In this document: positions 49,141-57,239 of the stretch, piece by piece
Layout of the letters: each line of letters begins with the position of its first letter
How positions within the stretch are numbered: the stretch's first letter is position 1
Assembly: GCA_037189525.1 (NCBI GenBank)
Contig: JBBCJC010000005.1
Location: 448,001 to 512,000, forward strand
DNA from: Gemmatimonadales bacterium
Lineage (GTDB): Bacteria; Gemmatimonadota; Gemmatimonadetes; Gemmatimonadales; GWC2-71-9
Length of the DNA stretch: 64,000 nucleotides
Reading direction: 5' to 3'
Program-made: the position numbers and the translations under genes
Notes under the pieces: model-generated
Seen by the model: the letters and a program-made list of their open reading frames with translations, nothing else
Told to the model about the DNA's origin: nothing
The model's database searches: none

Positions 49141-50415
49141 ATGCGAATCGACCTGAGCACGTCGGCCGTTCTGGCCCTCCTGGTGTCAGCCCTGTCCGGC
49201 TGCGGCAAGGCGCCCGAGGGCCGGACCACGGCCTCCACCAGCGACAGCGCCGGCATCCGAATCGTCAACAACGGCCAGGGCAGCTGGCAGGACGGTGAGG
49301 CCTGGACGATCGATGCCACTCCGCTCGTGAGCATTGCCGGGACGCCCGACGCCGAACTGACCCAGATCGTCGGCGCCGTATTGCGCCACGACGGGAGCCT
49401 TGCGGCCGCGTCCGCTCTAGCCAACGCGATCCGCTTCTTCGACGCGTCGGGACAACCGATCGGCACGCTGGGACGCCCGGGGAGCGGCCCCGGTGAGTTT
49501 CAGGCCTTGTCCGGCGTCTGGACTGCCGCCGGCGATTCGCTCGTCGCGGCGGACGTCATGACCCAGCGGCTCACGGTCATCACCCCAGACGGGAAAGCGG
49601 GACGCGCCTACGCCCTGGGCGGCCAATCGAGCCTGGCCCCCGGCGAGGGCGGCCGGATGGCATTTGCCGTACCGATGGGCGCCCTGACCGACGGGTCCGT
49701 CATCGGCCAGCGGCTCAACTTCACGATCGGCGAACAGCGCGAATCGGTCAGCCGGGATACCGTGACCTTCATCCGCTACGCACCTGACGGCACCGCGGCC
49801 GACACGATTGCCTCGGTACCCGGAACCGAAACGACCCAGGTCACCGTCACCTTCGGAACCCAGACCATCCCCATCCCGACGCCCGTTCCGCTCGGCAAGC
49901 AGACCGTCGCCGGGATCCGCGGTAACCACGTGTTTCTGGCGCAGAACAATGCCTGGGAGATCGAACGGTACCGACCGGATGGCACGCTCGACCTGCTGAG
50001 CCGCGCCCCGGTCCAGGCCATTCGGCTCACGGCCAACGACGTCTCCGTCCACCGCGCCGAATGGCGGGAGATGCTCGAGGCGGTACCACAGATGCGAGCG
50101 GCGCCGGCCCAATTCAAGACGCAATACCTGACCCAGCTCGATCAGATCCGCTATCCGGAAGCGATGCTGTGGATCCAGGGCCTCTTCCCCGCGCCGGACG
50201 GTGGCGTCTGGGTCGAAGAGGCGGTCCGGCCCGGGATCAAGCAGCGGCAGTTTGCCGTGCTCGGGGTCGATGGGGTGCTCCTGGGCCGGCTGTCGGCACC
50301 AGCCGGATTTCGATTGATCCAGGTCGAGAGCGACCGGGTGGTGGGAGTCTGGACCGACGACGATGGCCTGGAGCATGTCCGGGTCCATCGGATCCTCAAG
50401 CCTGGAGCTAGCTGA
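49141..50415 (+). CDS. 6-bladed beta-propeller lipoprotein
   Basis: LSGC lipobox, DSAGIRIV, GSGPGEF motif. Confidence 0.72.
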   Translation: MRIDLSTSAVLALLVSALSGCGKAPEGRTTASTSDSAGIRIVNNGQGSWQDGEAWTIDATPLVSIAGTPDAELTQIVGAVLRHDGSLAAASALANAIRFFDASGQPIGTLGRPGSGPGEFQALSGVWTAAGDSLVAADVMTQRLTVITPDGKAGRAYALGGQSSLAPGEGGRMAFAVPMGALTDGSVIGQRLNFTIGEQRESVSRDTVTFIRYAPDGTAADTIASVPGTETTQVTVTFGTQTIPIPTPVPLGKQTVAGIRGNHVFLAQNNAWEIERYRPDGTLDLLSRAPVQAIRLTANDVSVHRAEWREMLEAVPQMRAAPAQFKTQYLTQLDQIRYPEAMLWIQGLFPAPDGGVWVEEAVRPGIKQRQFAVLGVDGVLLGRLSAPAGFRLIQVESDRVVGVWTDDDGLEHVRVHRILKPGAS

Positions 50416-50815
50416 GCACAAACAGTTTGAGCAGGCCGTAGCCACCCGCGGCCGCAGCCAGCGCACCAAGGGCCCCCAGGGTGAGCCTGACCGTCTGCGA
50501 CCGATCAGCCCACCACGCCGACAGCCGTTCGCCGACATCGCGGACCCTGAGCTCGGCCCGGTCGAGGAAGGTCGCCAGAGGCCGGATATCGCTGGCGATC
50601 AGGCCGAGCCCGAGAGCGACGATGAGCCAACCGGGACCCGGCGCCGGGATCAGGAAGGCGCCGGCCGTGGTAATCGCCAGCCCGCCCGCCATCCGCGCCA
50701 CCCGCGCCGCGAACGACGGCCCGCCCTTCCGGGTGCGCCGATAACGCTCGCGAAACCGCCGGCCTGGCTGCGCATCGCGCAGAAGTTGCCACTCTCGCTT
50801 GATCGATTCCAGCAT
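50408..50815 (-). CDS. PGPGW-domain membrane protein
   Basis: IPAPGPGWLIVALGL. Confidence 0.78.
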   Translation of the reverse strand: MLESIKREWQLLRDAQPGRRFRERYRRTRKGGPSFAARVARMAGGLAITTAGAFLIPAPGPGWLIVALGLGLIASDIRPLATFLDRAELRVRDVGERLSAWWADRSQTVRLTLGALGALAAAAGGYGLLKLFVLS

Positions 50816-50997
50816 TCTCCCTACCGCATGATGACTTCAATACATGACGTCCTGTCGTCCCAATCTAGCGACAGTGACCCATCCCAGGGACACAACTGGC
50901 TGAGAAGCCGTCTCGACGGTAAGAATCTAATTCCTTATAAAACAACAAGTTAGGCAAATCGGAAGTGCTGGCCCGATTCTTTCTATACGGGAGGGAA

Positions 50998-51237
50998 ATG
51001 AGTCGACTTGCCAAGAAATCGGATCTCGAATATGCCCACCAATCAGCTCACCAGCCAACTCCTGCCCACGGTGTTCATCGCGACGACCTCACTCCCGTGG
51101 CCGGGCCAGATGCCGCCGGCAACTCAGATCCAGGCCTTACCGCAGCCGCTGGATCGCACCAGCAATCGAACGTTCCTGGCCGTCCGCTGAACTCGATCAG
51201 CGGACGACCCGGTACGGCTCGATACACTCTGCAGTAA
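50998..51237 (+). CDS. Small hypothetical protein (alternative ORF 51032-51190)
   Basis: GGAGGG before ATG; low-complexity 79 aa; upstream regulatory motifs. Confidence 0.35.
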   Translation: MSRLAKKSDLEYAHQSAHQPTPAHGVHRDDLTPVAGPDAAGNSDPGLTAAAGSHQQSNVPGRPLNSISGRPGTARYTLQ

Positions 51238-51243
51238 AGACGA

Positions 51244-52338
51244 TTAGCGGGACGGTCGCTCGACCGAACCCGGAGGAGCGGCTCGCAAGTACTGCGCGGG
51301 CCACGGCACATCGAGGCCGAGTTCGGCTGCCGCGCGAAGCGGCCAGTAGGGATCACGTAACAGTTGCCGCGCCAGCAGTACCAGATCGGCTTGCCCCGTC
51401 CGGATGACATGATCGGCCTGCGCCGGCGCCGTCAGCAGCCCCACAGCCCCGGTACGGACGTTGGCTTCGCGACGGATCCGCTCGGAGAGACCGGTCTGAT
51501 AGCCGGGCCCGATCGGAATCCGGACCCCGCTGACATTCCCGCCCGACGAACAGTCGATCAGATCCACCCCCTGTTCGACCAGGATCCGCGACAGCCGAAC
51601 CGAATCGTCCAGCGTCCAGCCTCCCTCGACCCATTCCGTCGCCGAGATCCGTACGAAGAGCGGTAAGTGCTCGGGCCAGTGGCGGCGGACTTCCATCACC
51701 ACGTCGCCCAGCAATCGAATCCGGTTTTCGAAGCTCCCGCCGTACTCGTCGGTCCGCTGATTGCTGACGGGCGAGAGAAACTCGTGCAGCAGGTACCCGT
51801 GGGCCGCGTGAATCTCGACGACTTCGAACCCCGCTTGGCGCGCACGGCGAGCGGCCGCGCCGAACCCGAGCACCACGTTCCGGAGGCCGGCCAGATCGAG
51901 AGCTTCCGGCCTCGGATAGGTATCGCTGAACGCAACGGCACTCGGCCCCACCACCTGCCAGCCGTCGCGATCGGGCGGCACCGTTCCCTGCACCGGATGC
52001 CAGGGGCGATAGGTACTGGCCTTCCGGCCGGCATGCGCCAGCTGCACACCCGGCACCGCGCCCTGCTGCTTGATGAAGGCCGTAACCCGGGCGAGAAAGG
52101 GCACGTGTTCGTCGTCCCAGATTCCCAGGTCTTCCGGACTGATACGCCCCTCGGGCAACACGGCCGCCGCCTCGGTCAGCACCAGCCCCGCGCCGCCCAC
52201 GGCTCGGCTGCCGAGATGCACCAGATGCCAGTCGTTGGCAAATCCGTTCTCACTCGAATATTGACACATCGGAGACACCACGATGCGATTGGGCAGGGTC
52301 ACCCCGCGAATCGCGAGCGGTTCGAACAGGCTCGTCAT
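51244..52338 (-). CDS. NADH:flavin oxidoreductase (YqjM/NamA-like Old Yellow Enzyme)
   Basis: SPMCQYS, QLAHAGRK, HAAHGYLLHEFLSP, LLRDPYW. Confidence 0.92.
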   Translation of the reverse strand: MTSLFEPLAIRGVTLPNRIVVSPMCQYSSENGFANDWHLVHLGSRAVGGAGLVLTEAAAVLPEGRISPEDLGIWDDEHVPFLARVTAFIKQQGAVPGVQLAHAGRKASTYRPWHPVQGTVPPDRDGWQVVGPSAVAFSDTYPRPEALDLAGLRNVVLGFGAAARRARQAGFEVVEIHAAHGYLLHEFLSPVSNQRTDEYGGSFENRIRLLGDVVMEVRRHWPEHLPLFVRISATEWVEGGWTLDDSVRLSRILVEQGVDLIDCSSGGNVSGVRIPIGPGYQTGLSERIRREANVRTGAVGLLTAPAQADHVIRTGQADLVLLARQLLRDPYWPLRAAAELGLDVPWPAQYLRAAPPGSVERPSR

Positions 52339-52416
52339 GGTATTGCAGTTGGTTGGGACGACGTTAGGCACATCGGGGCGGCCTGCCGCGCTGCGACGCC
52401 GGCTCCACCCCGATGG

Positions 52417-53466
52417 TCAGGCACCACCCCCGACGGGGGTCGAACTCAATCGACCGATGACCTGGTCGGCAAAGCGTTCCATCTCTTCTGCCTGCGGGCT
52501 GAATTGTAATAGCAGAAGGTCGACCCCGGCGGCCTCGAATGCCGCAATCCGATCGGCGACCTGTGCCGGCGTACCGACCAGGCCTGCCCGCAATCCCCGA
52601 TTGGACACCGAGTACTCCTCGAGGGACACCTGGCGCTCGAGCCGGGTATTGGCCACCCAGTCGCGATAGTTCCCGTAGCCAGGCGATCCCGGCGCCACGT
52701 TGGTAATCCGTTCCAACTCGCGCGCCGCCTCCTGCTCGGAATCCCGGACGATGACGAAGGCCGCCATCCCGAACGAAAGGGGCGGGAGACCCGTCGCGTC
52801 CCTGAGCGCCGAAAGCTCATCGATCCGCGCCGAGATAACGTCGAGGGGATCGCCGTGCATGACGTAGGCATCGCACTGCCGGCTGATCAATTGCTTCGCC
52901 GCCGGCGACTCGCCGCCCGCGTAGATCGGCGGCCGCGGACGGCGCACCGGTTTGGGTTCGAGAATGGTCTGGTCGACCTGATAGTAGGCCCCATCGAAGG
53001 AGAACTCCGGCTCCCGCCACACGCCGTCGACGACCGAAAGCCACTCGGCGGTGCGCGCGTACCGGTCGTCGTGCTGATCGAAGCGCACGCCGTATCGCCT
53101 CGCTTCGTCGGCCCACCAGGAGGAGACGACGTTGAGGGCCAGCCGGCCGCCCGCAATCCGATCGATCGCTGCCGCCTGCTTGGCAAGGATCGCCGGCTGA
53201 TGAAAGGTCGGCCGCACCGCGACCATCAGTTCGAGGCGCCGGGTCACCGCGGCCAGCGCCGCGGCCGTCGACCACGCATCCAGCGACGGCGCGGTGATCC
53301 CCTTGATGTCATTGAGGAACAACTCGGCGATCAGAGTCAGGTCGTAGCCGATCTCTTCACTTCGGCGCGCCAGGCGGCTGACGTATTCCCACGACGGATC
53401 CATCCCCTCATCCGGAACGTTGCGCAACCACCCGCCGAACACCGGAAGCCAGTACCCGAAGCGCAT
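52417..53466 (-). CDS. LLM-class flavin-dependent monooxygenase (SsuD/SfnG-like)
   Basis: FGYWLP, MVAVRP, GGRLALNVVS, IYAGGES, LVGTPAQVA. Confidence 0.85.
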   Translation of the reverse strand: MRFGYWLPVFGGWLRNVPDEGMDPSWEYVSRLARRSEEIGYDLTLIAELFLNDIKGITAPSLDAWSTAAALAAVTRRLELMVAVRPTFHQPAILAKQAAAIDRIAGGRLALNVVSSWWADEARRYGVRFDQHDDRYARTAEWLSVVDGVWREPEFSFDGAYYQVDQTILEPKPVRRPRPPIYAGGESPAAKQLISRQCDAYVMHGDPLDVISARIDELSALRDATGLPPLSFGMAAFVIVRDSEQEAARELERITNVAPGSPGYGNYRDWVANTRLERQVSLEEYSVSNRGLRAGLVGTPAQVADRIAAFEAAGVDLLLLQFSPQAEEMERFADQVIGRLSSTPVGGGA

Positions 53467-53468
53467 CG

Positions 53469-54455
53469 TCAGGTGCTCGCCGGGGTCACCAACCCGGCCC
53501 GGACTTCGATGTAGTCCACGAAGCGGGCAAACGGATCGAACCCGATCACATTCGGCGCATCCGCCACGAAGTTCGACAGCGCATTGATGTCGTAGAAGTA
53601 GTGCCGGCCGTCGCGCTCATCGATCAGATACTCGATCCCGCCGATGTCGAGCCGAACGTGACGGGCAATCTGCTCGACCTGGGCCACGATCTCCGCCGGC
53701 GGATCGGCCCGTTCGACCCGCATCCCGGTCTTGGGCGCGTCTGCTGCGCAGAAGGTGCGATCCAGCGTCCGCCCTTCGGTCGTCTGGCAGATGTCGGCCG
53801 GACAGAGATTGAACGACTCGCCGGTCGGATACACGTTGATGGCGTAGAGGAACTTGCCGTCGAGCACTTCGACTCGAGTGATCCGGCTGCCCGACAACGG
53901 CGCCAGTTCCTGGACCAATGCCGTTTGATCCAAGCCGAGATCAATCCGCCCGGCCGCCGCCGCCTCGACCAACTGGTCTTCGGTATCGAAACGGACGATT
54001 CCGGCGCCGCTGCCGCCGATATTGGCTTTGACGACGACCGGATACCGGAGTTGTCGAGCCGCCGACGCGGCGCGCGACGCATGATTGATCACCAAGGCGC
54101 GCGGCACCGGCAGACCCAACTCCGCCAGGACCTCGACCTGGAAGGCCTTCGAGATCTCGAGCGCATAGACCGCCGAGCCGTTGACGATCGGCGTGCCGGT
54201 GCGTTCGACGTGGCGAAGCCAGTTGAGGGTATGGAACGTGGTCTGGCCATGGCCACGCAGATAGGCGGAGGGACTGTTGCGATTGACGACCAGGGAGTAG
54301 CGGCGCGTCAGATCAGCCGGATCGTACTCGTGGGCTGCCGCATCGAGCGCCACCCATGGAATCCCCCGCCGATCGAGTTCCGCAAAGAGTGGCTTGAACC
54401 AGTCCGGATGCTCATGGTATACGGCAACGGGAAGCGTCCCCGATGGAACCGACAT
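53469..54455 (-). CDS. RimK-like ATP-grasp ligase
   Basis: YPVVVKANIGGSGAG, LVQE, GGIEY, YDINALSNF; Cys cluster CPADIC..FC. Confidence 0.82.
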   Translation of the reverse strand: MSVPSGTLPVAVYHEHPDWFKPLFAELDRRGIPWVALDAAAHEYDPADLTRRYSLVVNRNSPSAYLRGHGQTTFHTLNWLRHVERTGTPIVNGSAVYALEISKAFQVEVLAELGLPVPRALVINHASRAASAARQLRYPVVVKANIGGSGAGIVRFDTEDQLVEAAAAGRIDLGLDQTALVQELAPLSGSRITRVEVLDGKFLYAINVYPTGESFNLCPADICQTTEGRTLDRTFCAADAPKTGMRVERADPPAEIVAQVEQIARHVRLDIGGIEYLIDERDGRHYFYDINALSNFVADAPNVIGFDPFARFVDYIEVRAGLVTPAST

Positions 54456-54513
54456 AAACCTGCCTCGATTGTTGGATTTGAGAACGACAGACTACGACGA
54501 CGTCAGGGACGCC

Positions 54514-54612
54514 TTAGCGACAACAACAACAGCCCTGGTGGCCCGACCCGACGAGGCGGGAGGCGCACCCAGGGAGTACAGCGGGGGTGATGGAGCGGCG
54601 TACAACCAGCAT
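54514..54612 (-). CDS. Leaderless polycysteine leader peptide MLVVRRSITPAVLPGCASRLVGSGHQGCCCCR
   Basis: TGT x4 just before TAA; ATG lies 6 nt after a TAGAGT -10 box; stop is 58 nt upstream of the ATP-grasp start. Confidence 0.78.
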   Translation of the reverse strand: MLVVRRSITPAVLPGCASRLVGSGHQGCCCCR

Positions 54613-54618
54613 TCACGG

Positions 54619-54647
54619 ACTCTAAGCGACCGCCCGACCGGGGTCAA
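54619..54647 (-). promoter_or_regulatory. sigma70 promoter for the leaderless poly-Cys ORF
   Basis: TTGACC-N17-TAGAGT. Confidence 0.72.
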
Positions 54648-54719
54648 CCGACGGTCGCTCCGTCCAAGGACCGGATCTGCCACCAGATCGCGGTCCCTAT
54701 TTCACTGGAAACGAACGGC

Positions 54720-55319
54720 TCAGCCGCGCCAGGTCACTTTGTCATCGAGCGGGCGCCGAACGACATCCGGAGGAACACTGCCCGGATGGCCAAGGATAAA
54801 AAAGCCGAGTGGTCTGGAGGGCGCGGGCACTCCGACGAACTCCGCAACATGCGGCAGCACAGCCTGCGCACCCGTCGACCACTGCCCGGCCAGGCCGAGC
54901 GCCGTCGCGGCCAGGTGGAGATTCTGGACCGCGCCGCCAAAGGCGAGGAGCTCTTCCCATTCCGGCATCGCGAACGACCCGTCGGGCTTGAGGCCCGGCT
55001 TGAGCGTGAGCGCGATCCAGACCGGCACTTTCCACACCTTGTCTCGGCTGGTCTCGAAGGCCTCCTGCGTGAAATTCCCCCGCGCTTCGGCCTGGATCCG
55101 GTAGGCTTCGCCAAAGGCTTCACCCAGCGCCCGCCGTCCCTCACCGGTGAAGACGGTGAAGTGCCAGGGCTCGGTCTTGCCGTGGCTGGGCGCCCACCGG
55201 GCGGCCTCGAGCACCTGCTCGATCAACGAGGGGTCGACCGGGTCGGGCTTGAGAAAGGGCATCTTGTGGCTGCGACGGGCTCGCATCAGAGCAAGCAGGT
55301 CGGCTGCGTCGATTGCCAT
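54720..55319 (-). CDS. Nitroreductase family protein (YdjA-like)
   Basis: RARRS, AARWAPSHGKTEPW, QNLHLAATALG, WSTG. Confidence 0.88.
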   Translation of the reverse strand: MAIDAADLLALMRARRSHKMPFLKPDPVDPSLIEQVLEAARWAPSHGKTEPWHFTVFTGEGRRALGEAFGEAYRIQAEARGNFTQEAFETSRDKVWKVPVWIALTLKPGLKPDGSFAMPEWEELLAFGGAVQNLHLAATALGLAGQWSTGAQAVLPHVAEFVGVPAPSRPLGFFILGHPGSVPPDVVRRPLDDKVTWRG

Positions 55320-55557
55320 ATCGCTCTACGAATTGATGTTGAAAACCTGGTTTCGTCCGCACGCAGGCGAACATACGAAACGCAAACCTAACGGCCACGC
55401 GATGCGGGACCAATCAGATGGATTCCCGTGACCGCATCTGTCCTGATCCCGTCACGGCGGCCCCTCCGAAAGTCAATTCGCTCAAGTACGTCAATCCATT
55501 GCATTTCAATGGTTTAAGAACGCAGACATCAGGTAATTTCGAACCTCGGGCGGCCAA

Positions 55558-55651
55558 TGGTGACGTAGAGTCCCGGTTGATTCGAAGACCGGGGCGCATC
55601 TACGTTCAGTCGAGAAGGCGTTCTCTGATTCACCAGCGCGAGGGACCACCA
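55558..55651 (+). ncRNA. Candidate multibranch cis-regulatory RNA upstream of the CNNM/CorC gene
   Basis: Nested stems TGGTGA/TCACCA, CGTAGA/TCTACG, CCCGGT/ACCGGG and GAGAA/TTCTC next to the SD. Confidence 0.45.
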
Positions 55652-55655
55652 GTCG

Positions 55656-56939
55656 ATGGACATAGCCCTATTAGTCGGCCTGATTCTGCTCAACGGTGTC
55701 TTCGCGATGTCCGAGATTGCCCTGGTCACCGCCCGAAAAGCCCGGCTCGCCAAACTCGCCGGCGCCGGTGACAGCGCCGCCGAAGTCGCCCTGCGGCTGG
55801 GCGAAGACCCGACCCGGTTCCTGTCGACCGTCCAGATCGGCATCACCTCGATCGGCATCCTGAACGGTATCCTCGGCGAGGCCGTCTTCGCCGAGCCCTT
55901 TGCGGTCTGGCTGGTGTCGCTGGGCATGAGCGAGGGCGCCGCATCGATCGTATCGACCGGACTCGTCGTGCTCGTGATCACCTATGTCTCCATCGTCGTG
56001 GGCGAACTGGTGCCGAAGCGGCTGGGCCAGATCAGCCCGGAGAGTGTGGCCCGGCTGGTCGCGCGCCCGATGCAGCTCCTGGCCCAACTGACGCGCCCCT
56101 TCGTCCGCCTGCTCTCGTTCTCGACCAATACCCTGCTCCGGCTACTGGGCGTCCGGAGCAACCAGGGTCCGTCGATCACCGAAGAAGAACTCCACGCCTT
56201 CCTGGCCGAAGGCTCCGAAGCTGGGGTCATCGAGCGACAGGAACACGAGATGGTCCGGAACCTGTTTCGTCTCGACGACCGAAAGCTCGGCTCGCTGATG
56301 GTGCCACGCGCCGACATCGTCTACCTCGACACCAAGGTTCCGATCGCGGAGAATCTGGCGCGCGTCGCCGAGTCGGTGCATTCCCGCTTTCCGGTCTGCG
56401 ACGGCGACCTCGATAATCTGACCGGCCTGGTCACCGCCAAGCAGATCCTGGCGCAGACGCTCAAGGGCGAAACCCCGGACCTGCTGGCCAACCTGCAGAC
56501 GCCCGCGTTCGTTCCCGAGACCCTGACCGGGCTCGAGTTGCTCGAGAGCTTTCGGACCAACCACATCTCGGCCGCGTTCGTCCTGGATGAGTACGGAGGG
56601 GTGAAAGGGCTAGTGACGTTACAGGACCTGTTAGAAGCCGTGACCGGCGATCTCTCCGCCCCCGGCGGCGGCGATGCCTGGGCGGTCCAGCGGGAGGACG
56701 GGTCCTGGCTCCTGGATGGGACCATCCCGATCCCCGAGCTCAAAGACCGGCTGCAGATCGCGCAACTTCCCGAAGAGGATGCCGGGCGCTACCACACGGT
56801 CAGCGGCATGATGATGCTGCTATTGGGACGGGTCGGCGTGACGGGAGATCGAGTGCAGTGGGAAAACTGGACGTTCGAGATCGTGGATATGGACGAGAAG
56901 CGGATCGATAAGGTGCTCGCCAGCCGGATCGAGAGCTGA
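55656..56939 (+). CDS. Hemolysin-family CNNM(DUF21)-CBS-CorC transporter (MpfA/PaeA-like)
   Basis: FAMSEIAL, QIGIT, GELVPK, HSRFPV, DEYGG, VDMDEKRIDKV. Confidence 0.92.
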   Translation: MDIALLVGLILLNGVFAMSEIALVTARKARLAKLAGAGDSAAEVALRLGEDPTRFLSTVQIGITSIGILNGILGEAVFAEPFAVWLVSLGMSEGAASIVSTGLVVLVITYVSIVVGELVPKRLGQISPESVARLVARPMQLLAQLTRPFVRLLSFSTNTLLRLLGVRSNQGPSITEEELHAFLAEGSEAGVIERQEHEMVRNLFRLDDRKLGSLMVPRADIVYLDTKVPIAENLARVAESVHSRFPVCDGDLDNLTGLVTAKQILAQTLKGETPDLLANLQTPAFVPETLTGLELLESFRTNHISAAFVLDEYGGVKGLVTLQDLLEAVTGDLSAPGGGDAWAVQREDGSWLLDGTIPIPELKDRLQIAQLPEEDAGRYHTVSGMMMLLLGRVGVTGDRVQWENWTFEIVDMDEKRIDKVLASRIES

Positions 56940-56946
56940 ACGCCAC

Positions 56947-56978
56947 GGCTCCCGGAGCAGAGCACCGCCCCGGGAGCC
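56947..56978. terminator. Hairpin between convergent genes
   Basis: GGCTCCCGG...CCGGGAGCC inverted repeat next to an A5 run. Confidence 0.5.
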
Positions 56979-56987
56979 CCAAAAAGA

Positions 56988-57239
56988 TCAGTCGCCTTTG
57001 GTCTTGAGGACCGCGTCGTTGTCCCGCAAAAAGGCGCGAATCTCATCCGCCATATCGAGCAGACGGCTCCACTGCTCCTTATAGAGGGTCACGGGGAAAC
57101 GACCCAGGCCGTAGAGCGACAGGCCCCCCTTCTCACTGACCTTGAGATATACCGAGCGCTTCGATTTGTCGCGCTCTTTGAGGGACGCATTTTCGGCCCG
57201 AAGCCGTTCCAATTCTGCCTTCAGATCCTCATCACTCAT
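56988..57239 (-). CDS. Conserved-looking small hypothetical protein
   Basis: GGAG SD; N-terminal coiled coil plus KVSEKGGLSLYGLGRFPVTLYKEQW. Confidence 0.75.
   Translation of the reverse strand: MSDEDLKAELERLRAENASLKERDKSKRSVYLKVSEKGGLSLYGLGRFPVTLYKEQWSRLLDMADEIRAFLRDNDAVLKTKGD

What the first reader, a model, noticed from the sequence alone, without database searches (positions are those of the whole stretch)
54456..54647. Leaderless polycysteine leader peptide: probable cysteine-sensing attenuator outside Actinobacteria
Seen (minus strand): TTGACC-N17-TAGAGT-N6-ATG, so transcription should start at or next to the ATG. The 32-codon ORF ends GGC TGT TGT TGT TGT CGC TAA, using four TGT codons where TGC is expected in high-GC DNA, and it stops 58 nt before the ATP-grasp gene. 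The spacer CAACAATCGAGGC contains the SD. Its CAACAA can pair with the Cys codons (TTGTTG), its CGAGGC with GCCTCG in the leader ORF, and CAGGG before the Cys run with CCCTG after the stop. Established: leaderless poly-Cys sORFs act as cysteine-responsive attenuators in mycobacteria. Inference: ribosome stalling under Cys limitation frees the SD of an organosulfur-scavenging operon, in a lineage where I know of no such report.
Basis: partly seen in the sequence, partly recalled or inferred. Interest (0 to 1): 0.9.

Follow-up and report, generated by a model that had tools for sequence, protein, structure and literature searches.

The report
Cysteine-sensing leader peptide in Gemmatimonadota
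A tiny gene ending in four cysteine codons sits at the very start of a sulfur-related operon and most likely lets the ribosome switch that operon on when cysteine runs short; the same sensor recurs across this little-studied phylum, but the exact RNA switch in this copy is unproven.

Summary
A TTGACC-17-TAGAGT promoter is followed 6 nt later by a 32-codon ORF ending in four TGT codons, 58 nt before an ATP-grasp gene, an SfnG-like monooxygenase and a flavin oxidoreductase. Homologue titles place the host in Gemmatimonadota. All 10 genus members that carry the ATP-grasp gene have a Cys-rich leaderless ORF there. Of 124 operon-head homologues, 54 have a promoter-coupled short ORF (49 with at least 2 Cys; many also Met-rich); 36 other loci carry a SAM-II-like riboswitch instead. 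The genome's cysK has such a leader too. Cys sensing is well supported (about 0.85). The output differs from most relatives: 42 of 54 have an intrinsic terminator, with the antiterminator strongest when the ribosome is on Cys codons. This three-genome clade has no terminator. Rho-dependent control is the main rival. A Cys uORF attenuator was already predicted in Rhodobacterales, and this scan noted similar ATP-grasp leaders on other DNA. Verdict: new variant of a known kind; no expression data.

The parts
54642..54647 (-). -35 hexamer TTGACC
   Evidence: identical in L002 and L003, which have a different upstream gene
54619..54624 (-). -10 hexamer TAGAGT, 6 nt before the ATG (predicted leaderless start; TSS not measured)
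   Evidence: genome-wide excess of long-ORF ATGs 6-8 nt after such hexamers
54514..54612 (-). 32-codon leader ORF MLVVRRSITPAVLPGCASRLVGSGHQGCCCCR
   Evidence: 81-87% nucleotide identity among three genomes vs 48-57% at 4-fold sites of the ATP-grasp gene; the one indel inside the ORF is 3 nt
54533..54574 (-). Hairpin H1 inside the leader ORF (CCCUG...CAGGG with inner CCCG/CGGG), ending just before the Cys run
   Evidence: consensus fold; 46 of 48 cells paired, no two-sided change
54520..54531 (-). Four TGT (Cys) codons: sensor, and predicted 5' arm of a helix with CAACAAU
54499..54513 (-). Small post-stop hairpin H2 (GGCGUC-CCU-GACGUC); its 3' arm could also pair with the SD
   Evidence: 17 of 18 cells paired, one-sided changes only; duplex with the SD segment -7.7 to -10.2 kcal/mol
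54456..54474 (-). CAACAAU (54474-54468), SD GAGG (54466-54463) and spacer to the ATP-grasp start; GGCA can pair with UGUC over the start codon
   Evidence: AATCGAGGCAGGT is invariant in the three leaders
53469..54455 (-). ATP-grasp ligase of unknown substrate (RimK-like, 328 aa)
   Evidence: PF08443, PF02786; TIGR00768 60.8 bits vs cut-off 143; no close solved structure, best E 1.3e-6
52417..53466 (-). Luciferase-like monooxygenase, closest model SfnG, below cut-off
   Evidence: a 100-protein cluster led by this family follows the ATP-grasp gene among 113 wide loci, not de-duplicated
51244..52371 (-). NADH:flavin oxidoreductase (NamA-like), 45 nt downstream; possibly co-transcribed, not a conserved partner
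   Evidence: not among recurring neighbour clusters
54720..55319 (-). Upstream nitroreductase gene; ends 72 nt before the -35 with no intrinsic terminator found, so read-through is possible
   Evidence: not conserved upstream in L002 or L003

Best explanation
A leaderless, ribosome-mediated cysteine attenuator. Transcription starts at or beside the leader ATG (inferred). With plenty of Cys-tRNA the ribosome clears the four UGU codons and leaves; the Cys codons then pair with CAACAAU next to the SD and a short GGCA/UGUC stem covers the SD end and start codon, so the ATP-grasp gene is poorly translated and the operon is polar (predicted structure). When Cys-tRNA is scarce, ribosomes stall and queue on the Cys run, block that helix and allow initiation at the ATP-grasp gene (inferred by analogy; not reproduced by my folding models). 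The operon probably recovers sulfur from an organosulfur compound (inferred). I put the Cys sensor with induction on starvation at about 0.85, and this particular translation-level output at about 0.5.
For: Shown: 10 of 10 genus members with the ATP-grasp gene have a promoter-coupled Cys-rich short ORF. 54 of 124 operon-head homologues have one, 49 of 54 with at least 2 Cys, against 29 and 7 of 3746 long-ORF starts in the own genome. Cys is 13.0% of in-frame codons vs 0.6% in genome ORFs. Where an SsuE-like reductase heads the operon, the leader sits in front of it in 8 of 21 loci. cysK (TIGR01139 above cut-off) has such a leader in 7 of 8 matches. 36 of 149 loci carry a SAM-II-like motif, none together with a strict Cys leader; 4 of the 9 motif loci scanned reach the RF00521 gathering score. 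In terminator-type relatives the terminator 5' arm is more sequestered with a ribosome on Cys codons than in free RNA in 34 of 42 (1 the other way) and than with a ribosome at the stop in 31 of 42 (2 the other way). For this clade: no terminator; leader and spacer strongly conserved; Cys:CAAYAAU helix in the consensus fold with one G-C to G-U change. The layout matches Ms5788A (10.1101/834739).
Against: The whole leader folds worse than shuffles (z +2.4), whereas Ms5788A is described as an exceptionally stable duplex. The Cys:CAAYAAU helix probability in free RNA is 0.00-0.68 here, 0.89-0.94 in L002 and 0.06-0.19 in L003, depending on transcript end. Blocking the Cys run does not consistently lower the cost of opening the RBS; with a lone ribosome it rises in L003 and mostly in L002, because the freed H1 5' arm pairs with the SD. 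Only three sequences of this type exist in my set and none of 34 pairs shows a two-sided change. Cys is also 8.7% in the +1 frame of the homologous leaders, as expected from TG repeats. Kin are not independent. TSS, translation and regulation were not measured.
Confidence: 0.52

Rival explanations
1. Same Cys sensor, but the output is Rho-dependent termination. Rho loads on the C-rich 5' half of the leader ORF; a ribosome stalled on the 3'-terminal Cys run blocks Rho from reaching RNA polymerase, and fast translation lets it terminate.
For: No intrinsic terminator here. The first 60 nt have C25-27 vs G13-14 in all three leaders, against roughly balanced C and G in the sister clade. The Cys run is moved to the far 3' end, 81 nt from the start. 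The genome encodes Rho above cut-off plus a second Rho-like gene. Rho was proposed, as a weak prediction, for actinobacterial Cys leaders (PMC1262725).
Against: H1 ties up part of the C-rich tract. Some terminator-type leaders are as C-rich (L159, L160, L165). The spacer is not C-rich (C16, G15). The invariant CAAYAAT beside the SD is better explained by pairing. For Ms5788A the paper's data argued against termination in the leader.
Confidence: 0.23
2. A Cys-codon switch with another wiring or the opposite sign: a lone stalled ribosome melts H1 and the freed GCCUC segment pairs with the SD, so the operon is off in starvation; or the ribosome at the stop codon melts H2 and its 3' arm covers the SD.
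For: Lone-ribosome models raise the RBS opening cost in L003 (about 5 to 9-10 kcal/mol). GCCUCGUC gives the strongest duplex with the SD segment in the window and L003 (-13.1 kcal/mol).
Against: That duplex is broken at an SD-facing pair in L002. Queued ribosomes would cover the segment. The terminator-type and SAM-II-type orthologues both point to induction on shortage.
Confidence: 0.1
3. The peptide itself matters: a metal- or redox-binding nascent peptide, or a precursor modified by the ATP-grasp enzyme and the monooxygenase.
For: Cys-, His- and Met-rich peptides can bind metals (general knowledge). ATP-grasp peptide maturases exist; weak hits to TIGR04187 and TIGR04184.
Against: Those hits are 28 and 23 bits against cut-offs of 350 and 475. 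Peptides share little but Cys and Met, which vary in number and spacing. 36 loci have the same enzymes with a SAM-II-like motif and no such ORF. The same leader type precedes cysK (L315). TGT is favoured (133 TGT vs 71 TGC), a nucleotide-level signal.
Confidence: 0.07
4. A vestige or chance ORF in a conserved 5' region with no present sensing role.
For: The terminator of the sister clade is missing and the models show no clear switch.
Against: ORF, Cys run and stop are kept in three genomes whose 4-fold sites are only 48-57% identical.
Confidence: 0.04

Closest known systems
Mycobacterial polycysteine leaderless sORF attenuators (Ms5788A; Canestrari et al., bioRxiv 10.1101/834739; I read parts 1-2 of 6 and search passages)
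   Same: Predicted leaderless start, about 30 codons, Cys run at the 3' end, no intrinsic terminator, Cys codons complementary to the region just before the downstream SD, several such leaders in one genome.
   Different: Different phylum, no sequence likeness tested. The duplex here is weak (8 pairs) rather than exceptionally stable. The target is an uncharacterised ATP-grasp/monooxygenase pair. Close relatives use an intrinsic terminator, and many leaders mix Met with Cys.
uORFC-8-2 motif upstream of cysS in Rhodobacterales (Brewer et al. 2021, PMC8632094; passages read)
   Same: Tandem Cys codons in a uORF; predicted ribosome-mediated attenuation outside Actinobacteria. Its terminator layout resembles 42 of 54 homologous leaders and the cysK leader here.
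   Different: Predicted only, two Cys with UGC dominant, not described as leaderless in the passage read, other target gene. The window's own leader has no terminator.
Cys leader peptides of Mycobacterium, P. acnes and B. longum (Seliverstov et al. 2005, PMC1262725; passages read)
   Same: Runs of Cys codons near the stop, no terminator hairpin; Rho involvement suggested.
   Different: Actinobacteria, and cys or cbs operons.
Classical trp/his/thr leader-peptide transcription attenuators (general knowledge)
   Same: The terminator-type relatives follow the same logic.
   Different: Leaderless start and Cys/Met codons; the window's copy lacks the terminator.
SAM-II riboswitch (Rfam RF00521)
   Same: Occupies the same position in front of orthologous operons, which reports on sulfur amino acid status.
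   Different: Not present in the window (no Rfam match in 50000-57000); it senses SAM, not charged tRNA.

Membership tests
Mycobacterial-type polyCys leaderless translational attenuator | Transcript starts at the AUG/GUG of a short ORF | tested here: inconclusive
   ATG 6 nt after a -10; long-ORF ATGs at gaps 6, 7, 8 number 11, 8, 9 against a mean of 2.6 at the other 38 gaps among 894 sites. No TSS data.
Mycobacterial-type polyCys leaderless translational attenuator | Short ORF with consecutive Cys codons, conserved in relatives | tested here: met
   CCCC here, CCC and CCCC in L002 and L003; 31 of 54 homologous leaders have CC.
Mycobacterial-type polyCys leaderless translational attenuator | Cys tract pairs with the SD-proximal region | tested here: inconclusive
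   Helix in the consensus fold, 24 of 24 cells, no two-sided change; probability 0.00-0.94 by sequence and transcript end.
Mycobacterial-type polyCys leaderless translational attenuator | Very stable leader duplex whose disruption by the ribosome frees the SD | tested here: not met
   Leader folds worse than 199 of 200 shuffles; no consistent RBS opening on modelled stalling. In silico only.
Mycobacterial-type polyCys leaderless translational attenuator | No intrinsic terminator in the leader | tested here: met
   None found.
Mycobacterial-type polyCys leaderless translational attenuator | Downstream genes belong to cysteine or sulfur metabolism | tested here: inconclusive
   SfnG-like LLM below cut-off; SsuE-like reductase (label from recalled motif, no family scan) next to it in 21 loci; SAM-II replacement. 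Substrate unknown.
Mycobacterial-type polyCys leaderless translational attenuator | Expression responds to cysteine and needs translation of the Cys codons | not testable with these tools
   Needs reporters or ribosome profiling.
Classical leader-peptide transcription attenuator | Intrinsic terminator between leader ORF and first gene | tested here: not met
   Absent in L001-L003; present in 39 to 42 (looser U-tract rule) of 54 homologous leaders.
Classical leader-peptide transcription attenuator | Antiterminator favoured when the ribosome is on the sensor codons | tested here: met
   Met for relatives only (34 of 42); not applicable to the window's leader.
Graspetide RiPP precursor with ATP-grasp maturase | Enzyme in a maturase family and a conserved precursor that is always present | tested here: not met
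   TIGR04184 and TIGR04187 far below cut-off; ORF replaced by a SAM-II-like motif in 36 of 149 loci.
SAM-II riboswitch (RF00521) | Covariance-model match in the leader | tested here: not met
   No Rfam match up to E 5 in window 50000-57000.
Dimethylsulfone monooxygenase SfnG (TIGR04021) | Score above the curated cut-off | tested here: not met
   249.4 vs 382.95 bits, though it is the best model.

The most novel reading that the evidence does not exclude
Gemmatimonadota run a phylum-wide sulfur 'ribulon' of leaderless Cys/Met leader peptides, interchangeable with SAM-II riboswitches, and the window's clade has converted a terminator-type Cys attenuator into a terminator-less, mycobacterial-like switch independently of Actinobacteria. 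In the same three genomes the leader before a phenylalanine-hydroxylase homologue carries Met-Cys-Cys where sister genomes carry Tyr runs, and the enzyme has lost an iron ligand, which suggests a sensor re-coded together with a change of enzyme function.
Probability: 0.35. Interest if true: 0.75.

Novelty: new variant of a known kind. Interest (0 to 1): 0.57.

Why it matters
Cysteine attenuation has been shown by experiment, in the papers my searches returned, only in mycobacteria and only at the level of translation. This family gives natural variants of one sensor on one operon: Cys leader plus terminator, Cys leader without terminator, mixed Cys/Met leader, and SAM-II riboswitch. That makes testable how attenuator outputs evolve and whether Met codons are sensed. 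It also assigns an uncharacterised ATP-grasp/monooxygenase pair to the sulfur-starvation response, and shows that leader codons can be used to infer function in a phylum known mostly from metagenomes.

Tried and rejected
Rfam scan of window 50000-57000: no match. Sequencing runs: no RNA holder listed, which is no evidence either way; read laying was not used. Folding the full terminator-type transcripts at equilibrium showed the terminator dominant in nearly all states (at most 5 of 40 switch); I then used transcripts cut at the terminator loop, which is the relevant co-transcriptional state. Ribosome-block models of the window-type leader gave no clear switch. RiPP precursor and SfnG membership were rejected on scores. 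Reading the second upstream motif as a peptide (MVICRLLPPR) was dropped once Rfam matched it to SAM-II. The SsuE sub-scan returned 0 through a script error and was redone. Literature searches found no paper with Gemmatimonad + attenuation + leader peptide + cysteine (0) or SAM-II + Gemmatimona (0). PMC4833913 and PMC2965389 passages had nothing on Cys leaders. LdmS (PMC9486568, abstract and outline only) is a sulfur-linked ATP-grasp precedent, but no chain named LdmS was among the 10 PDB hits. No structure prediction or complex job was run.

Full report
1. Observation. On the minus strand the window has TTGACC (54647-54642), 17 nt, TAGAGT (54624-54619), 6 nt, then an ORF 54612-54514 of 32 codons ending GGC TGT TGT TGT TGT CGC TAA, 58 nt before an ATG at 54455. 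It is the only promoter-like site in the 700-nt region (shuffle mean 0.0). TGT makes up 22% of Cys codons in the genome's long ORFs and TGTx4 occurs once in the genome. Four-Cys runs in some frame occur at 21 places, so the case rests on position and conservation, not on the run alone.

2. Context. Downstream lie an ATP-grasp ligase (328 aa, weakly RimK-like), a luciferase-like monooxygenase whose best model is SfnG but below cut-off, and a NamA-like flavin oxidoreductase; upstream is a nitroreductase. The closest named homologues come from Gemmatimonadota, so I place the host there by inference. Among 113 wide loci, not de-duplicated, a cluster of 100 monooxygenase proteins follows the ligase; a reductase that I label SsuE-like from its motif precedes it in 21 unique loci.

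3. Is leaderless translation plausible here? Among 894 strict promoter-like sites, ATGs opening ORFs of at least 150 aa number 11, 8 and 9 at gaps 6-8 nt against a mean of 2.6 at the other 38 gaps; gaps 11, 27 and 30 reach 7-8, so the peak is modest. No TSS was measured.

4. Conservation. Ten of 22 genomes of the genus have the ligase and all 10 have a promoter-coupled Cys-rich short ORF before it. Over all loci fetched, 162 had the ligase; 13 were dropped as duplicates or for having under 260 nt upstream, leaving 149. Of these, 25 were called operon-internal and 124 operon-head; the filter is imperfect (L015 was kept as head although a reductase precedes it). 54 of 124 have TTG-N16-18-nAnnnT followed by ATG at 5-9 nt and an ORF of 8-60 codons. 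All 54 have a Cys, 49 have two or more, 31 have CC and 16 have CCC; one (L059) is probably not a leader. In-frame Cys is 13.0% and internal Met 8.5%, against 0.6% and 1.8% in genome ORFs; the other frames give 8.7% and 1.6% Cys. 38 of 54 have two or more internal Met; the window's leader has none. The same scan before 3746 long-ORF starts of the own genome (a set that includes spurious ORFs) found 29 short ORFs, 7 with two or more Cys. Cys-rich ORFs also lie before the ligase in 4 of 5 Acidobacteriota loci, two of them near-identical. These genomes are kin, so the counts are not independent tests. One locus (L050) comes from an unpublished genome, G193; it enters the 149 and 124 and the tree, not the 54.

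5. What is sensed. Three lines point to sulfur amino acids. (a) The genome's cysK (TIGR01139, 412 vs 351 bits) has a leaderless two-CC ORF and a terminator-like hairpin, and 7 of 8 matches among 41 genomes have such a leader. (b) When the reductase heads the operon, a Cys-rich leader is found before it in 8 of 21 loci. (c) 36 of 149 loci carry a different conserved motif, never together with a strict Cys leader; of 20 loci scanned, 9 had this motif and 4 reached the SAM-II gathering score. SAM-II switches genes off when SAM is high (general knowledge), so the operon is most likely induced by shortage. As internal controls, the genome has a Thr/Met/Lys-rich leaderless ORF before asd-lysC, and intact phenylalanine hydroxylase genes of the genus have Tyr-rich leaders.

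6. Output in relatives. 39 of 54 leaders have a hairpin of -12 kcal/mol or better before a U tract (42 with a looser rule). With the transcript cut at the terminator loop, freeing the terminator's 5' arm costs on average 5.8 kcal/mol in free RNA, 9.3 with a ribosome on Cys codons and 6.0 with it at the stop. The cost is over 1 kcal/mol higher on Cys than free in 34 of 42 and lower in 1. At full-length equilibrium the terminator wins almost everywhere, so the switch must be kinetic, as in classical attenuators.

7. Output in the window's clade. L001-L003 form one branch (SH-aLRT 100), sister to seven terminator-type leaders of the genus (99 for the joint group; quick tree of 149 rows, midpoint root). 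Terminator types surround it, so loss of the terminator in this clade is the simpler reading; I did not run a clade test. Leader ORF and spacer are 81-87% identical while 4-fold sites of the ligase are 48-57% identical. The consensus fold has H1 inside the ORF, a Cys:CAAYAAU helix reaching the first G of the SD, and a 4-pair stem over the SD end and start codon; with H2 added, 99 of 102 cells pair, none with a two-sided change. With queued ribosomes the cost falls by 2-3 kcal/mol in L002 for short transcripts, is flat in L003, and is flat or higher in the window except with the A site at the last Cys or the Arg in the longest transcript; a lone ribosome raises it in L003. These differences are near the accuracy of such models, so they neither prove nor exclude the switch. 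The first 60 nt are C-rich and Rho is present, which keeps Rho-dependent control open.

8. Mechanism, marked by basis. Shown: promoter-like site, ORF, conservation, Cys enrichment, absence of a terminator, replacement by SAM-II, the cysK parallel. Computed: antiterminator behaviour in relatives, Cys:CAAYAAU helix here. Inferred: leaderless start, stalling, release of the RBS, polarity, sulfur-scavenging function. Odds: Cys sensor with induction on shortage about 0.85 in all; of the detailed models, translation-level 0.52, Rho 0.23, other wiring or opposite sign 0.10, functional peptide 0.07, vestige 0.04.

9. Known systems. It works like Ms5788A of M. smegmatis (10.1101/834739; parts 1-2 of 6 and passages read; supplements closed), but the very stable SD-sequestering duplex was not met in silico, so I do not file it as a member. 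Terminator-less Cys leaders of Actinobacteria were predicted in PMC1262725 (passages), and a tandem-Cys uORF with a terminator in Rhodobacterales in PMC8632094 (passages), so Cys uORF attenuation outside Actinobacteria is already in print as a prediction. PMC10783764 (passages) gives the Gemmatimonadetes anti-SD as UCACCUCCU, compatible with GAGG. My ten searches found nothing on such leaders in Gemmatimonadota (0 papers; 0 papers); subscription journals and supplements were not covered. This scan's earlier notes describe Cys leaders before ATP-grasp genes on other genomes and Tyr leaders before phhA; these are unchecked AI notes, not independent evidence.

10. Verdict. A real, conserved regulatory leader; new variant of a known kind. 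Interest 0.57. The value lies in the family: one operon with four alternative sulfur switches, and a terminator-less clade whose mechanism can be settled with a handful of reporter mutants.

Noticed in passing
window 37189-37010 (-), gene 36988-36245 (-): A second leaderless leader in the same window: TTGCGC-16-TATTAT, ATG 37152, MNRICTVGRIMCCFECFRGRGRVHRS, terminator 37042-37018, before a phenylalanine-hydroxylase homologue. In this genome, G021 and G005 the leader has Met-Cys-Cys and the enzyme has YAD/FAD where 8 other homologues have FHD; most of those have Tyr-rich leaders. It is the only match in this genome at E 1e-15.
   Followed up: partly
L297 (G000:C3:809907-809993 +): Leaderless ORF with two CC pairs and a terminator-like hairpin before cysK; conserved in 7 of 8 matches. 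The L315 leader is the same sequence type as the sister-clade ATP-grasp leaders.
   Followed up: yes
L299 (G000:C1:804115-804213 +): Leaderless Thr/Met/Lys-rich ORF and terminator-like hairpin before asd and aspartate kinase: a candidate multivalent attenuator.
   Followed up: partly
L298 (G000:C5:976781-976882 +): Leaderless ORF with one CC and a terminator-like hairpin before a SusC/RagA TonB-dependent receptor; conservation not checked.
   Followed up: partly
L013, L031, L035, L052 and 32 further loci, upstream of the ATP-grasp gene: SAM-II-like motif followed by a terminator-like hairpin in Gemmatimonadota; 4 reach the RF00521 gathering score. The following hairpin suggests transcriptional control.
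   Followed up: partly
L073, L086, L093, L099, L106, L121, L124-L126, L159-L165 leaders: Alternating Met-Cys tracts suggest sensing of both sulfur amino acids; they could also reflect UG-repeat pairing needs.
   Followed up: partly
window 54513-54456 vs L004-L009 leaders: The window's GACGTCGTCG and ATCGAGG resemble GATGTCGTCGGG and ATCGAGG in the sister clade's leader ORF, hinting that this leader arose by rearrangement of the terminator type. Seen by eye only.
   Followed up: no
G000:C2:93727-94839 (+): A second Rho-like gene (451 bits, below cut-off) besides the canonical rho.
   Followed up: no
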